From a bacterium (GTDB lineage Bacteria; Cyanobacteriota; Sericytochromatia; S15B-MN24; UBA4093): DNA of 64,000 bases. Under the pieces are notes generated by a model. It was given only the letters and a program-made list of their open reading frames with translations. It had not been told where the DNA came from and made no database searches. The stretch lies in assembly GCA_017744355.1 (NCBI GenBank), contig JAGIBK010000005.1, forward strand, positions 260,790 to 324,789, written 5' to 3'. Shown here in pieces: positions 8,075-10,666 of this stretch (within the stretch, counting starts at the first letter, position 1; each line of letters opens with the position of its first letter). The translations under genes and the position numbers were made by a program.

Positions 8075-10666
8075 ATGAACATTAACTCAACCTCACAGTC
8101 GCCCCGGGCTACCGGCCCGTTAGCGCGCATGGCCACAGGGCCACTCACCGGCGCTCCCGTGACGCCGCCCCAGCGGACGCCGGCGCCCACGCTGGTATCG
8201 GATACGGCATCGATCCAGGCCGGTGCGCGAGACCCGCAGGACGAGGCCAAGCGCCTTGAGGCGCTCGTCAATCAAGTCAAGGCGAAGGCAGCCGAGCAGG
8301 CTAGCGCTATCGAAGCCGCCGCGGCCCAGGCCACTGACGGCAACCTGGTGGCAGAAGGCTTCAACTCCCTGGTCAACGTGTTCAAGGGCAACCGAGACGC
8401 CCTGGACTCCACCGTTTCCCAGTCCCTGCACGTGCTGCGCTCGGAGCTGCCGAAGGATCTCGAAACCTTCCACGGCATGATGGAAGCGGCGAATGGGGAT
8501 CCGGCGAAGCTTCAAGCGGCAAGCGACTTCCTGCAGGGGGCCCTCACGAAGGCCCAGAATTCACGCGAGAAGTTCGATCGACAGCTTCAAGCCTTCTCCT
8601 CGACCAACAAGTTCTGGTCCGGGCTGACGGCAGACGTGTCGGTAGGTTTGCTGACCGTCGGCGGGGCCGCCCTGGTCATGACGGGGTTGGGAGCACCCAT
8701 CGGAGCCGCGATGATCGCGGGAGCCGCGGTGGTGGGTGGGGCGGCCACGGTCGGCGCGCACGCCCTCCTGGACAACCAGTACAGCCTCAAGGAAGAGGGG
8801 ATGAGCAACTTCTTGCTCGGTGGGTTGAACGCCGGCGCGGCCGTTTTCACGGGCGGCCTGTCGGCGGGGCTCACCCAGACCGCGGCCCGGAGCGCCGCCC
8901 TGCAGGGTGGTATCGCGGGCATGACGGGGTTGGCTCAGGAGGGATCCCAGGGCTTCCAGGAAGGATGGCTCTCGCGGGTCGCCGTGGGCGTCGGGGTAGG
9001 CGCGGCAGTGGGCGGGGCCGTCCATGGCGCCGGGAGCAAGCTCTTGGGCGAGGGCCTTGAGAATGCGATCGCCGCCAAGGGAGCCCAGGCGGCCTTGGGC
9101 GGTGCCTCGGGGGCGGCCGGATCGGGGGGAGCAGCCCTGCTCAACGAGGCCAGCGATGGCTTCCGCGAGGGGTGGCAAGACCGGGTGAAGGATCAGACCA
9201 TCGGGGGTGCCCTGGGGGGAGCGGTAAGCTCGCTCGGCCCCAACCTCGCCGCTCGGAACGTGGACGCCAAGGGGCGGCAGATGCTGCGTCACGGTGCGCG
9301 GGATATGGGGGCTGCGGATCGCGCCTCCATCGCGAGCGTGGCAACCCCTTACGGCAAGCCCTTGCCTGCAGCAAGTGAGCCCTTGCCGAGTCCCGGCGCT
9401 CGCAGAGCGTCGAATGTCGCGATCGATCACCCCAACCAGCCTGGCCAGAAGCTGATCCTGCCTGAGGCCGAGTTCTCGGGCTTCACCCTGGGCAAGGACG
9501 GCGAGCTGGGCTTGCGCATCGTCGATCAGGGCATCAGGGTGGGGAAAAAGCTGACGGTTCAGGCCAGCCCCGAGCTGATGGAATCCTTCGGGCTCACGCG
9601 CCCCAACCAGCTTGGCAAGACCGTCACCGGCGTAACGGTGACGGATCAGAACGGCGCTCCCGTTTCGCTGAAGGAGGCCAGGATCACGGGGATCGCGGCC
9701 GATGGACAGTCCGTCACGCTGACGGACCCCGCGGGCAACTCCTACGCGCGCGTCCCGGCCACGGCCATCGACCTTCCTGCAGCCCTGCGCCCGGCCTCGC
9801 GGCAGCAACTGGCGGACCAGAACCGCCTTCTCAAGCAGCTTCAGGAGCGCGGCGCCGGGTCGCTCAAGCAGATGTACGATCACCTTTCGGGTGACCTCTC
9901 GACGCGACTCTCGAAGAGCGCCGCGCTGCCCGCGGCCTTCCGGGAGGCGGGCATGCCGATCAGTGCTTGGAATGAGGCGCCTGCGGCATGGGAGCGACTG
10001 AGTGCCGATCAGCGCCTGAAAGTGGCCCAGAAGCTTGGTCAAGCCGTTAGCGCAGAGGTGGCGGATACCTTCAAGTTCCCCGCGCCGGCCGTCGCATTCG
10101 AGGCGACGGAGAACCTCGCGGGATCCTATAAGGACGGCAAGATCACGCTCAACCCGCGCGAACTGCAGGGCCCCCTGGTGAATGTGCTCGATACCCTCGT
10201 GCATGAGCAGACCCATGCCTACCAGGGCTTCCTGGCGCGCGAGGGGCATCAACTCGCCATGCCGCTGGAGATCCGCGAGGAGGTTGGCAACTATCAGCGG
10301 GCCTTCCAGCGCGAGAACTACGTGAATCCTGCTCCTGACCTTCTCAAAGCCGGCCCTCAGGCCACCTTCGCGGCCGAGCGCATGGTCACGCGCCATTCCC
10401 AGGAAGCGTTGTTCCTGAAGCTCATGAACTCCGGTCTTTCGAATCGTGAGCGACTCTTGGTGCAGGAGTGGCGCTTCAAGTGGGCCAACAAGCCTCAGAC
10501 GGGAAGCGAGTACCTACGCCTCAACCGCGATCTCTACGAGAATTGGACGAAGACCTACAAGAACCAATCCCTCGAGGGGCATGCCCATCGCGTGAGCAGC
10601 ACCGTCACCTCGAACTTGCTGGGGAAAGCGCGCCGGATCGACCTCGAGATGGGCCTGCGCCGCTAG
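8075..10666 (+). CDS. large hypothetical protein with Gly/Ala-zipper hydrophobic region and a C-terminal HExxHxxQ zincin-like (DUF4157-like) domain
   Basis: 864-aa ORF with an N-terminal helical region, a roughly 230-aa Gly/Ala-rich segment containing predicted TM helices, and C-terminal LVHEQTHAYQG. Confidence 0.8.
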   Translation: MNINSTSQSPRATGPLARMATGPLTGAPVTPPQRTPAPTLVSDTASIQAGARDPQDEAKRLEALVNQVKAKAAEQASAIEAAAAQATDGNLVAEGFNSLVNVFKGNRDALDSTVSQSLHVLRSELPKDLETFHGMMEAANGDPAKLQAASDFLQGALTKAQNSREKFDRQLQAFSSTNKFWSGLTADVSVGLLTVGGAALVMTGLGAPIGAAMIAGAAVVGGAATVGAHALLDNQYSLKEEGMSNFLLGGLNAGAAVFTGGLSAGLTQTAARSAALQGGIAGMTGLAQEGSQGFQEGWLSRVAVGVGVGAAVGGAVHGAGSKLLGEGLENAIAAKGAQAALGGASGAAGSGGAALLNEASDGFREGWQDRVKDQTIGGALGGAVSSLGPNLAARNVDAKGRQMLRHGARDMGAADRASIASVATPYGKPLPAASEPLPSPGARRASNVAIDHPNQPGQKLILPEAEFSGFTLGKDGELGLRIVDQGIRVGKKLTVQASPELMESFGLTRPNQLGKTVTGVTVTDQNGAPVSLKEARITGIAADGQSVTLTDPAGNSYARVPATAIDLPAALRPASRQQLADQNRLLKQLQERGAGSLKQMYDHLSGDLSTRLSKSAALPAAFREAGMPISAWNEAPAAWERLSADQRLKVAQKLGQAVSAEVADTFKFPAPAVAFEATENLAGSYKDGKITLNPRELQGPLVNVLDTLVHEQTHAYQGFLAREGHQLAMPLEIREEVGNYQRAFQRENYVNPAPDLLKAGPQATFAAERMVTRHSQEALFLKLMNSGLSNRERLLVQEWRFKWANKPQTGSEYLRLNRDLYENWTKTYKNQSLEGHAHRVSSTVTSNLLGKARRIDLEMGLRR

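What the first reader, a model, noticed from the sequence alone, without database searches (positions are those of the whole stretch)
8075..10666. 866-aa glycine-zipper membrane-inserting protein with C-terminal HExxHxxQ zincin-like motif (candidate toxin/effector)
The protein has a disordered, polar N-terminus. It continues with a helical region and then a roughly 230-aa Gly/Ala-rich segment with several predicted TM-like helices and G-x-x-x-G/A zippers (GLGAPIGAAMIAGAAVVGGAATVGAHALL...). These resemble pore-forming or translocator regions. The C-terminal domain contains LVHEQTHAYQG, the HExxHxxQ signature typical of DUF4157-type zincin metallopeptidase domains found in polymorphic toxins. 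No cognate immunity-like small ORF, secretion-system gene or Rhs/PAAR element is adjacent. The gene sits alone between convergent and divergent neighbours.
Basis: partly seen in the sequence, partly recalled or inferred. Interest (0 to 1): 0.6.

Follow-up and report, generated by a model that had tools for sequence, protein, structure and literature searches.

The report
Modular toxin-like protein with zincin domain
This gene from an uncultured non-photosynthetic relative of cyanobacteria (Sericytochromatia) encodes a three-part protein: a previously undescribed helical, glycine-rich membrane module, a small beta domain and a SprT-like zinc-protease-like domain. Its relatives carry the same front end joined to quite different enzyme "warheads", which is how bacterial polymorphic toxins are built.

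Summary
There is a real ORF at 8066-10666 (+), with ATG 8075 the likely start (863 aa). It has a Gly/Ala-rich hydrophobic region and a conserved HEQTHAYQ motif.

An exhaustive HMM search found about 30 relatives. Every relative with a taxonomic label is Candidatus Sericytochromatia.

The N-terminal 340-aa helical module recurs in about 20 proteins and matches no Pfam or NCBIfam family. It is joined to at least five unrelated C-termini: this zincin, another zincin, an ADP-ribosyltransferase-like domain, a flavoenzyme-like domain and an unknown domain. It also occurs alone.

The C-terminal domain recurs without the module. It keeps invariant E714, H717, Q720, Y831 and E837. Its AlphaFold model (pLDDT 82) places HExxH on a helix after a three-stranded sheet. 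Its only recurrent similarity, all sub-threshold, is to SprT-like zincins. DUF4157 is not matched.

No secretion or immunity gene is adjacent in the window. Six of twelve related loci do have a tightly coupled small downstream ORF.

Best reading: a lineage-specific polymorphic-toxin-like effector in which a membrane-inserting module carries a metallopeptidase. The secretion route, the target and catalysis are untested.

The parts
8066..10666 (+). Complete ORF. It is 866 codons from GTG 8066. The probable true start is ATG 8075 (863 aa). NCBI calls M22 as the start (845 aa).
   Evidence: GC3 0.81, coding pattern; AAGG 11 nt before ATG 8075; P0001 identical; P0003 start aligns.
7986..7999 (+). 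Terminator-like hairpin in the 123-nt spacer between the upstream co-directional GGDEF gene and this ORF. It suggests a separate transcription unit (weak evidence).
   Evidence: It was the single consensus match, and 1.7 matches were expected in shuffles.
8075..8242 (+). Polar, Pro/Thr/Ser/Ala-rich N-terminal region (aa 4-59) that is predicted to be disordered. There is no signal peptide or lipobox. Its length and sequence vary among homologues.
   Evidence: pLDDT <50 at the start of the model.
8243..9265 (+). Constant N-terminal module (aa 60-400), predicted to be all-helical with 11 helices. It has a three-helix coiled part (aa ~57-180, motifs GNxVAxGFN and NKFWSGLTAD) followed by Gly/Ala-rich hydrophobic and amphipathic helices. 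It is found in about 20 cluster representatives, with or without C-terminal domains.
   Evidence: invariant G209, D236, Q238, E244, F249 and others; AF2 pLDDT 68.6.
8618..8770 (+). Hydrophobic helical hairpin (aa 185-235, SGLTADVSVGLLTVGGAALVMTGLGAPIGAAMIAGAAVVGGAATVGAHALL). It is the only strongly hydrophobic stretch. It is followed by the invariant polar motif HALLDNQY.
   Evidence: It has local resemblance to the AopB and YopB hairpins and lies within the region matching the NheB model.
8927..9043 (+). Internal repeat unit 1 (aa 288-326): ..QEGSQGFQEGWLSRVAVGVGVGAAVGGAV..
   Evidence: local self-alignment score 90, BLOSUM62; both copies conserved in the family.
9137..9253 (+). Internal repeat unit 2 (aa 358-396): ..NEASDGFREGWQDRVKDQTIGGALGGAV..
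9239..9259 (+). Junction motif P-x-L-A-A-R-N (aa 392-398) that ends the constant module. Homologues diverge into unrelated C-termini just after it.
   Evidence: P392 conserved; the module HMM ends here; the C-termini cluster into separate classes.
9404..9760 (+). All-beta middle domain (aa ~447-565, eight strands). It is present only in the query clade (P0002-P0004) and its function is unknown.
   Evidence: (strands at model residues 8-125, pLDDT 70-89), and (only weak Tudor/SH3-like barrel hits).
9863..10663 (+). C-terminal zincin-like domain (aa 600-866). It has a helical N-lobe, a three-stranded sheet (aa ~675-695), the active-site helix (aa ~704-729), an inserted helical region and a C-terminal 'glutamate' helix.
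   Evidence: pLDDT 82 overall and >90 around the sheet and helix; SprT-like affinity.
10202..10225 (+). HEQTHAYQ (H713, E714, H717, Q720), the putative metal-binding and catalytic motif.
   Evidence: E714, H717 and Q720 are invariant in 14 sequences. H713 is Glu in P0021-P0023.
10556..10585 (+). YKNQSLEGHA (Y831...E837...A840), an invariant Y, E and A on the last long helix. E837 is the candidate third metal ligand and corresponds to YYxQPxExDA in the small homologues.

Best explanation
The gene encodes a lineage-restricted (Candidatus Sericytochromatia), polymorphic-toxin-like modular effector.

**Architecture.** The constant N-terminal module (aa ~60-400) is a helical bundle. It carries one moderately hydrophobic Gly/Ala-rich helical hairpin and several amphipathic Gly-rich helices. 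The variable C-terminal part is, in this protein, a beta linker domain plus a minimal gluzincin-type (SprT-like fold) metallopeptidase. Its proposed metal site is H713, H717 and E837, with E714 as the general base.

**Proposed mechanism (inferred).**
1. The protein is made without a Sec signal and stays soluble because the hairpin is only moderately hydrophobic and is packed against the coiled part.
2. After release or contact with a target membrane, the hairpin and the Gly-rich helices insert and self-associate.
3. This anchors or translocates the C-terminal enzyme, which then cleaves a target protein.

**What is shown.**
- The ORF is real.
- The module is conserved and is combined with different C-termini.
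- The metal-site residues are conserved.
- The predicted fold is zincin-like.

**What is inferred.**
- Membrane insertion.
- Export.
- Proteolysis.
- Toxicity.
- The identity of the target, whether bacterial competitor or eukaryotic grazer.
For: **1. Constant N, variable C.** The exhaustive profile search found the N-module in P0004-P0020 and P0024, which are 273-1225 aa long. Their C-termini fall into at least five unrelated BLAST classes, and N-module-only proteins also exist.

**2. The C-termini look like enzymes or toxins.**
- One class has R / S-x-S / ExE motifs. Its top PDB profile hits are the ADP-ribosyltransferases VIP2 and Lmo0066, aligned at the YRG Arg motif, although the E-values are only 0.5-1.3.
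- Another class hits Pyr_redox_3 weakly.
- P0016 carries a different HExxH domain.

**3. The query's C-domain is itself mobile.** It occurs in P0021-P0023 behind a different N-terminus. Remote relatives are small stand-alone proteins, one of them fused to WXG100.

**4. The zincin assignment.**
- E714, H717, Q720, Y831, E837 and A840 are invariant.
- The AF2 model (pLDDT 82, pTM 0.77) places HExxH on a helix straight after a three-stranded sheet.
- Pfam SprT-like matches the query at E 0.03 and relatives at 0.001-0.008. P0034 has a precomputed PF10263 annotation.
- Foldseek against viral models gave an SprT-like protein at probability 1.00, TM 0.50 (target-normalised) and rmsd 3.6 A, plus several more SprT or zinc-metallopeptidase hits. 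Weak PDB hits are enriched in zincins.

**5. The N-module looks membrane-active.**
- It contains a hydrophobic hairpin.
- Its model is all-helical.
- Nine of 20 members individually hit the NheB pore-forming-toxin model over NheB positions 149-282, with a best E of 1e-5.
- The top PDB sequence hit is the AopB translocator hairpin.
- An experimental precedent exists: the N-terminal glycine zipper of the T6SS effector Tde1 is needed for membrane permeabilisation and delivery (PMC10240207).

**6. It is not housekeeping.** It is rare, with singleton clusters. The genomic context differs between 80-86% identical homologues. Several paralogues occur in one MAG or bin.

**7. Possible partner genes.** Six of 12 informative family loci have a tightly coupled 65-112-aa co-directional ORF. 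These ORFs have coding-like GC3 and are mutually unrelated, as immunity genes are.
Against: - No similarity to any curated toxin, trafficking or peptidase family reaches significance.
- No secretion-system gene lies within 8-10 kb in any of 13 loci.
- The window gene and its two closest homologues have no downstream small ORF.
- The first zinc-ligand His is Glu in three homologues.
- The third-ligand geometry could not be checked.
- The N-module model is only moderately confident (pLDDT 68.6, and 50-65 over the Gly-rich helices) and has no structural neighbour in PDB.
- hhalign against YopB gives only 6.9% probability.
- GxxxG periodicity is not above composition.
- The ADP-ribosyltransferase and flavoenzyme assignments of paralogue C-termini rest on motifs and non-significant hits.
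Confidence: 0.55

Rival explanations
1. The N-module is a polytopic or hairpin membrane anchor in the producer's own cytoplasmic membrane. The family would then be a set of membrane-tethered enzymes (protease, oxidoreductase, transferase) acting at the cell envelope, and not a set of toxins.
For: - There is no signal peptide and no nearby secretion system.
- The neighbours are housekeeping or envelope genes: an L,D-transpeptidase, an M15 peptidase, and rpoD-dnaG.
- There is no immunity gene next to the window gene.
- A hydrophobic hairpin is present.
Against: - The family is very rare and patchy even within Sericytochromatia, and its context is not conserved at 80% identity.
- The C-termini are shuffled like toxin cassettes, include ART-like domains, and are followed by unrelated tightly coupled small ORFs in half of the loci.
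- N-module-only proteins exist.
- The helices are Gly/Ala-rich with low hydrophobicity. This is typical of exported membrane-inserting proteins rather than SRP clients (an inference from established knowledge of T3SS and T4SS substrates).
Confidence: 0.2
2. The N-module is itself the toxin: an alpha-helical pore-former related to the ClyA/Nhe/Hbl head region, or colicin-like. The C-terminal domains would then be accessory, for example for targeting, receptor binding or maturation, and the HExxH domain would be a processing or adhesion domain rather than the warhead.
For: - Sub-threshold NheB matches recur in 9 of 20 members.
- N-module-only family members exist: P0007, P0011, P0017 and L008.
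- The module is all-helical with a hydrophobic hairpin.
Against: - NheB scores are 20-22 bits against a cut-off of 500, and Pfam's HBL family is not hit.
- No ClyA-family structure is found by sequence profile or Foldseek beyond E~3.
- The C-termini look enzymatic, and the catalytic-type residues of the zincin are invariant, which argues for an active enzyme.
Confidence: 0.15
3. The N-module is a secretion or targeting domain for a dedicated but unlinked machine, analogous to LXG for T7SS or MIX/prePAAR for T6SS. Its hydrophobic helices would bind a chaperone rather than a membrane.
For: - A remote relative of the C-domain is fused to WXG100.
- There is a weak WXG100 hit on aa 46-114 (E 0.58).
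- Small adjacent ORFs in half of the loci could be chaperones rather than immunity proteins.
Against: - No LXG, WXG, PAAR, MIX or Rhs family is detected at any threshold in 20 members.
- No secretion genes occur in 13 loci.
- The small ORFs follow the variable end and are unrelated to each other. That pattern fits immunity to the variable domain better than a chaperone for the constant domain.
Confidence: 0.1

Closest known systems
Polymorphic toxin systems (CdiA, Rhs/YD, LXG, MafB and others; Zhang et al. 2012, from my own knowledge)
   Same: A constant N-terminal region is joined at a fixed junction (P-x-L-A-A-R-N, aa 392-398) to unrelated C-terminal enzymatic domains. One genome can hold several paralogues. 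Half of the loci have small, mutually unrelated ORFs directly downstream.
   Different: The N-terminal module matches none of the known trafficking domains. There is no linked secretion system, PAAR, Rhs, VgrG or two-partner-secretion gene. The window gene itself lacks an immunity-like ORF. The family is restricted to Sericytochromatia.
SprT-like / Spartan minimal zincins (Pfam PF10263)
   Same: Both have a short beta-sheet followed by a helix carrying hhHExxH. The local motif 'I.L.....l...l.tLvHE.tHaY' aligns with Spartan. The best structural match is a phage SprT-like model. One relative, P0034, is annotated PF10263.
   Different: The score is below the Pfam cut-off (14.6 against 25.6 bits). 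The probable third ligand is a distant Glu (E837, about 120 aa downstream, or about 55 aa in the small relatives), not the nearby His of Spartan. There is a large helical insertion, and there are no DNA-binding or Zn-ribbon parts.
   Same: The HExxHxxQ spelling of the motif is shared, and these families occur in polymorphic toxins.
   Different: There is no HMM match at E<=10 for the whole protein or for the isolated C-domain, nor in any relative.
Agrobacterium T6SS effector Tde1 (N-terminal glycine zipper; PMC10240207)
   Same: An N-terminal Gly-rich GxxxG region precedes a C-terminal enzymatic toxin. In Tde1 that region permeabilises the target membrane and is needed for delivery.
   Different: The Tde1 region is short, binds the adaptor Tap1 and depends on a T6SS. 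Here the module is 340 aa long, has a coiled part and an internal repeat, and no T6SS genes are nearby.
Hydrophobic T3SS translocators (YopB/AopB/PopB, SseC family) and tripartite alpha-pore-forming toxin component NheB
   Same: Long amphipathic helices are followed by a Gly/Ala-rich two-helix hydrophobic hairpin (..TGxGAxxGAxxIxxG..). These are the top sequence hits in PDB (AopB) and in NCBIfam (NheB, 9 of 20 members).
   Different: No homology is demonstrable: hhalign against YopB gives 6.9% probability over 27 columns, and NheB scores about 21 bits against a cut-off of 500. There is no T3SS chaperone or needle gene and no nheA or nheC partner. Unlike those proteins, this module carries enzymatic C-termini.

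Membership tests
DUF4157 (PF13699) | Match to the Pfam HMM at or above the gathering score | tested here: not met
   There was no hit even at E<=10 with the full protein or the isolated C-domain, and none in 10 relatives.
DUF4157 (PF13699) | HExxHxxQ-type motif | tested here: met
   HEQTHAYQ lies at aa 713-720. E, the second H and Q are invariant in 14 sequences. The motif alone does not define the family.
SprT-like zincin (PF10263) | Pfam HMM score >= 25.6 bits | tested here: not met
   The query C-domain scores 14.6 bits (E 0.031) and relatives score 16-19 bits. Only the remote relative P0034 carries a precomputed PF10263 annotation.
SprT-like zincin (PF10263) | Fold: a beta-sheet edge strand followed by the HExxH helix, superposable on SprT-like structures | tested here: inconclusive
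Gluzincin metallopeptidases (HExxH + Glu) | Both His ligands and the catalytic Glu are conserved | tested here: inconclusive
   E714 and H717 are invariant. H713 is kept in 11 of 14 sequences and is Glu in P0021-P0023.
Gluzincin metallopeptidases (HExxH + Glu) | A third ligand Glu on a downstream helix that packs against the HExxH helix | tested here: inconclusive
   E837 is invariant and helical.
Gluzincin metallopeptidases (HExxH + Glu) | Zinc binding and peptidase activity | not testable with these tools
   This needs biochemistry.
Polymorphic toxin systems | A conserved N-terminal region with unrelated, interchangeable C-terminal domains | tested here: met
   There are at least five C-terminal classes on one N-module, and the C-domain is also found behind another N-terminus.
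Polymorphic toxin systems | The C-terminal domains are recognisable toxins | tested here: inconclusive
   ART-like R/SxS/ExE motifs are present, with VIP2 and Lmo0066 as the top but non-significant PDB hits. There is also a zincin-like domain. None reaches a curated threshold.
Polymorphic toxin systems | A cognate immunity gene immediately downstream | tested here: not met
   For the window gene, 90 nt separate it from a convergent gene. P0002 and P0003 also lack such a gene. Six of 12 other loci have a small coupled ORF, but its function is unknown.
Polymorphic toxin systems | A link to a secretion or trafficking apparatus (T5SS, T6SS, T7SS, PAAR, Rhs and others) | tested here: not met
   None is present in the 64-kb window or in 12 other loci. 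Whole genomes were not surveyed.
T3SS hydrophobic translocator (YopB/SseC family, PF04888) | Sequence or profile homology | tested here: not met
   There was no Pfam hit in 20 members. hhalign against YopB gave 6.9% probability. AopB scored E 0.07 over the hairpin only.
ClyA-family tripartite alpha-PFT, NheB (NF051442) | HMM score >= 500 bits (equivalog), and operon partners NheA and NheC | tested here: not met
   Scores are 20.7-22 bits. Nine of 20 members hit at E<=1, with a best E of 1e-5. No partner genes are present and there is no structural match.
LXG / WXG100 T7SS substrates | An N-terminal WXG100 or LXG domain | tested here: not met
   TIGR03930 scored E 0.58. There were no LXG or WXG hits in 20 members.

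The most novel reading that the evidence does not exclude
The N-terminal module is a new, self-sufficient alpha-helical membrane-translocation device. It would be functionally analogous to the T-domains of AB toxins or to pore-forming translocators but unrelated to them. Sericytochromatia would use it to deliver interchangeable enzymatic cargos (zincin protease, ADP-ribosyltransferase, flavoenzyme) into other cells without any dedicated secretion machine. That would make it the first toxin-delivery system described for the non-photosynthetic cyanobacterial lineages.
Probability: 0.2. Interest if true: 0.8.

Novelty: new variant of a known kind. Interest (0 to 1): 0.58.

Why it matters
If the reading is right, this locus defines a new constant "delivery" module for polymorphic toxins and a new branch of minimal SprT-like zincins used as a warhead. 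It would do so in a phylum (Sericytochromatia) with no cultured members and no described antagonism systems. The module's small size and its apparent independence from a linked secretion system would make it a tractable model for how Gly-rich helices carry enzymes into or across membranes. Its set of unannotated C-terminal domains is a source of new toxin and enzyme families. If the reading is wrong and the protein is a membrane-tethered enzyme, it is an ordinary lineage-specific protein family.

Tried and rejected
- **Curated families, whole protein and parts.** Pfam and NCBIfam gave nothing above threshold.
- **PDB sequence searches.** Searches with the single sequence and with three profiles gave nothing significant.
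- **Foldseek of both AF2 models against PDB.** No hit reached E<=0.001.
- **YopB homology.** I tested it by fetching yopB from pCD1 and running hhalign. The probability was 6.9%, so I rejected it.
- **tblastn of the N-module against 72,556 plasmids.** No match.
- **JGI metagenome contig scan with the N-module patterns.** No relative was found.
- **GTDB genome scan with the 20-sequence alignment.** The 7-sequence alignment worked.
- **Word-indexed search with the C-domain alignment.** It returned only one protein and was uninformative.
- **Are the small downstream ORFs of six family loci related to each other or present in the window?** They are not.
- **Is the glycine-zipper periodicity above composition?** It is not.
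- **His728 (HExxH+15) as a Spartan-like third ligand.** I rejected it because it is not conserved even in P0004.
- **The antisense 611-aa ORF.** I rejected it as a high-GC shadow ORF.
- **Literature search for Sericytochromatia toxins.** Nothing relevant was found.

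
Full report
**1. The observation**

The window (GC 0.65-0.70) contains an ORF at 8066-10666 on the + strand, 866 codons from a GTG. GC by codon position is 0.68/0.50/0.81, which is the coding pattern of this genome. The 611-aa ORF on the opposite strand has the inverted pattern and is a shadow ORF.

It has an AAGG 11 nt upstream and matches where the 80%-identical homologue P0003 begins. 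The protein is therefore probably 863 aa. NCBI's own call (P0001, 'hypothetical protein J7643_14210 [bacterium]') starts at M22.

- a T/P/A/S-rich N-terminus (aa 1-59);
- a helical region;
- a Gly/Ala-rich segment at aa 186-400, 43% G+A against 21% elsewhere;
- a single HExxH, HEQTHAYQ, at aa 713-720.

Three details need correcting:
- Only the hairpin at aa 185-235 is clearly hydrophobic.
- GxxxG counts are no higher than in composition-preserving shuffles, 12 against 10.3 +/- 2.4.
- The upstream neighbour is co-directional, not divergent.

**2. Relatives and architecture**

A word-indexed search of 5.8 billion proteins gave only seven relatives. An exhaustive HMMER search of 1.84 billion cluster representatives, using a family profile, gave 30. 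Clusters are singletons or nearly so.

Every member that carries a taxonomic label is Candidatus Sericytochromatia. A scan of one genome for each of 185,579 GTDB species found the module only in two Sericytochromatia MAGs, one of which has two paralogues. That scan used close patterns, so divergent members would have been missed.

The alignments show three parts:

- **Constant N-terminal module, aa ~60-400.** It is found in about 20 representatives of 273-1225 aa. Its invariant or near-invariant positions include GNxVAxGFN, NKFWSGLTAD, G209, H232, D236, Q238, E244 and F249. It contains an internal repeat (E-x-x-x-GFxEGWxxRV...GGAV, aa 288-326 and 358-396) and a terminal P-x-L-A-A-R-N motif (aa 392-398).
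- **All-beta domain, aa ~447-565.** It is present only in the query clade.
- **C-terminal domain, aa 600-866.**

After the junction motif the family members diverge. BLAST clustering of the regions downstream of the module gives five classes:
- the query's HExxH domain (query, P0002-P0004);
- a Rossmann/flavoenzyme-like domain (P0005, P0006, P0010; Pyr_redox_3 at E 5e-4);
- a Pro/Tyr-rich linker plus a domain with YRG...SxS...ExE motifs (P0009, P0013-P0015, P0019);
- an unknown domain (P0008, P0018, P0020, P0024);
- a second, unrelated HExxH domain (P0016).

P0007, P0011, P0017 and the L008 ORF are essentially the module alone.

A profile of the YRG class finds the ADP-ribosyltransferases VIP2 (1qs2) and Lmo0066 (8za7) as two of its three PDB hits. 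They align at the catalytic-Arg motif, but the E-values are only 0.5-1.3. I therefore treat 'ART-like' as an inference from motifs.

Conversely, the query's C-domain occurs in P0021-P0023 behind a different N-terminus. It also has remote relatives that are small proteins of 227-331 aa, one of them fused to a WXG100 domain.

This combinatorial pattern, with a constant front and interchangeable enzymatic ends, is the defining architecture of polymorphic toxins (established knowledge: Zhang et al. 2012).

**3. The C-terminal domain**

In a 14-sequence alignment at 22-30% identity to the query, the invariant columns are W642, G686, E714, H717, Q720, Y831, E837 and A840. H713 is kept in 11 sequences and replaced by Glu in P0021-P0023. 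The downstream motif YKNQSLEGHA corresponds to YYxQPxExDA in the small relatives.

AlphaFold2 on aa 440-866 with this alignment gave mean pLDDT 82.3 and pTM 0.77. In the model, a three-stranded sheet (aa ~675-695) immediately precedes the helix carrying HExxH (aa ~704-729). E837 lies on the last long helix. This is the zincin layout, with a candidate 'glutamate helix'. I could not measure the site geometry because the coordinates are not exposed.

Similarity to known families is consistently sub-threshold, and it consistently points the same way:
- Pfam SprT-like matches the query at E 0.031 and 14.6 bits, against a cut-off of 25.6.
- SprT-like matches relatives at E 0.001-0.008, and DUF6782 matches weakly.
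- A relative of P0029 carries a precomputed PF10263 annotation.
- The only PDB profile hit is Spartan, at the '...tLvHE.tHaY' motif, E 0.8.
- Foldseek against viral models returns an SprT-like protein at probability 1.00, target-normalised TM 0.50 and rmsd 3.6 A. At least five other hits are named SprT or zinc metallopeptidase.
- The weak PDB Foldseek list is enriched in zincins: ERAP1/IRAP, PprI and ArdC.

DUF4157 and the Tox-MPTase families are not matched at E<=10.

I conclude that the domain is a new, divergent minimal zincin of the SprT-like kind, probably using H713, H717 and E837. It is not a DUF4157 member.

**4. The N-terminal module**

No Pfam family is matched by any of 20 members. 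AF2 gives an all-helical model of 11 helices. It is confident over the first three long helices (pLDDT 76-91) and weak over the Gly-rich helices (50-75), with a mean of 68.6. It has no structural neighbour in PDB.

Two weak leads concern membrane-inserting proteins:
- **NheB.** The NCBIfam model for NheB, the B component of a tripartite alpha-pore-forming toxin, is hit individually by 9 of 20 members. The best E is 1e-5, over NheB positions 149-282, at about 21 bits against a cut-off of 500.
- **AopB.** The T3SS translocator AopB is the top PDB sequence hit, at E 0.07 over the hairpin.

I tested the translocator lead directly. I took yopB from pCD1 and ran hhalign against the module profile. 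It gave 6.9% probability over 27 columns. So there is no demonstrable homology, only a similar Gly/Ala hairpin.

The module therefore resembles such proteins in design, with amphipathic helices plus a moderately hydrophobic two-helix hairpin, and is a member of neither family.

An experimental precedent for a Gly-rich N-terminal region delivering a C-terminal toxin is Tde1. Its G39xxxG43 motif is needed for membrane permeabilisation and entry into prey cells (PMC10240207).

**5. Genomic context**

The window neighbours are:
- an L,D-transpeptidase, an M15-like peptidase and a response-regulator-GGDEF gene upstream;
- a convergent DUF4097 'toastrack' gene and a DUF2089 gene downstream;
- a DUF1080-like gene;
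- rpoD-dnaG.

Nothing in the rest of the 64 kb is a secretion system. The 80-86% identical homologues sit in entirely different contexts: ribonucleotide reductase and PfkB in one case, BacA and DUF4332 in the other.

Across 13 loci no secretion genes appear.

Six of 12 informative loci (P0016, P0009, P0004, P0005, P0013, P0008) have a 65-112-aa co-directional ORF that overlaps the stop codon or lies within 74 nt of it. The four I checked have coding-like GC3. The four I compared are unrelated to each other and are absent from the window. The window gene, P0002, P0003, P0010 and the module-only genes lack one.

The ORF's GC3 (0.81) is the lowest of the window's genes, which range from 0.82 to 0.96. 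This is only a faint hint of a different history.

**6. Interpretation**

The best-supported explanation (confidence about 0.55) is a Sericytochromatia-specific polymorphic-toxin-like effector. A membrane-inserting or translocating helical module would carry, in this gene, a SprT-like gluzincin.

The rivals are:
- a membrane anchor for envelope enzymes of the producer (0.2);
- a pore-former whose C-termini are accessory (0.15);
- a secretion-targeting domain for an unlinked machine (0.1).

The architecture and the residue conservation are shown. Membrane insertion, export route, catalysis, target and toxicity are inferred.

**7. Novelty**

The kind of system, a polymorphic toxin with an HExxH warhead, is known. 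The constant module, the zincin branch and the other C-terminal domains have no curated family, and the lineage has no described antagonism system. I rate it a new variant of a known kind, with interest 0.58.

Noticed in passing
window 25522-38955 (+): Eight co-directional ORFs have no Pfam hit, and all have lipoprotein-like N-termini (signal peptide plus Cys). They form two tandem paralogous four-gene cassettes. Gene 1 matches gene 5 (35% identity, E 2e-60), gene 2 matches gene 6 (30%), gene 3 matches gene 7 (29%) and gene 4 matches gene 8 (28%).
   Followed up: partly
window 47722-52744 (+): A 1154-aa NHL/TIG beta-propeller repeat protein is followed by two more lipoprotein-like ORFs (51183-51770 and 51767-52744). 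The second is related to members of the cassettes above. TIG/NHL or NHL proteins also lie near the N-module genes in loci L005 and L013. This may be coincidence.
   Followed up: no
window 52882-57029 (+): Two adjacent paralogous large proteins (591 and 791 aa) have an N-terminal P-loop (LLLSAGPGAGKT) and no Pfam hit at E<=1e-5. They may be STAND or MalT-like regulators.
   Followed up: no
loci L003 11675-11923, L005 10511-10708, L010 3178-3486, L011 4935-5198, L012 10858-11196, L014 11315-11557: Small ORFs of 65-112 aa lie directly after six N-module genes. The four I checked have coding-like GC3, and the four I compared are mutually unrelated. They are candidate immunity or chaperone genes.
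   Followed up: partly
P0022 aa 1-400 and P0023 aa 1-440: The query's C-domain, in a variant with EExxH in place of HExxH, sits behind a different N-terminal region that is also Gly-rich and hydrophobic and has no Pfam hit. This is a second possible delivery module.
   Followed up: no
P0008, P0018, P0020 and P0024, C-terminal ~500 aa: These four share a conserved unknown C-terminal domain (motifs GAANV[DE]HLASV, LLGTWLHGxPxFD, SQLLNDDxQQFT) with no Pfam hit. If the family is a toxin family, this would be a candidate new toxin domain.
   Followed up: no
L003 13540-13766: Near-identical copies of the 3' end of the first small ORF and the 5' end of the second small ORF after P0016 recur about 1.7 kb downstream. 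Together with the intervening DUF1016/YhcG nuclease-like gene, this suggests a local duplication or insertion.
   Followed up: no
window 402-2368 (+): A MacB-type ABC transporter pair (FtsX/MacB_PCD permease plus ATPase) lies about 6 kb upstream. MacB systems can export peptides and toxins, but nothing links this pair to the ORF.
   Followed up: no
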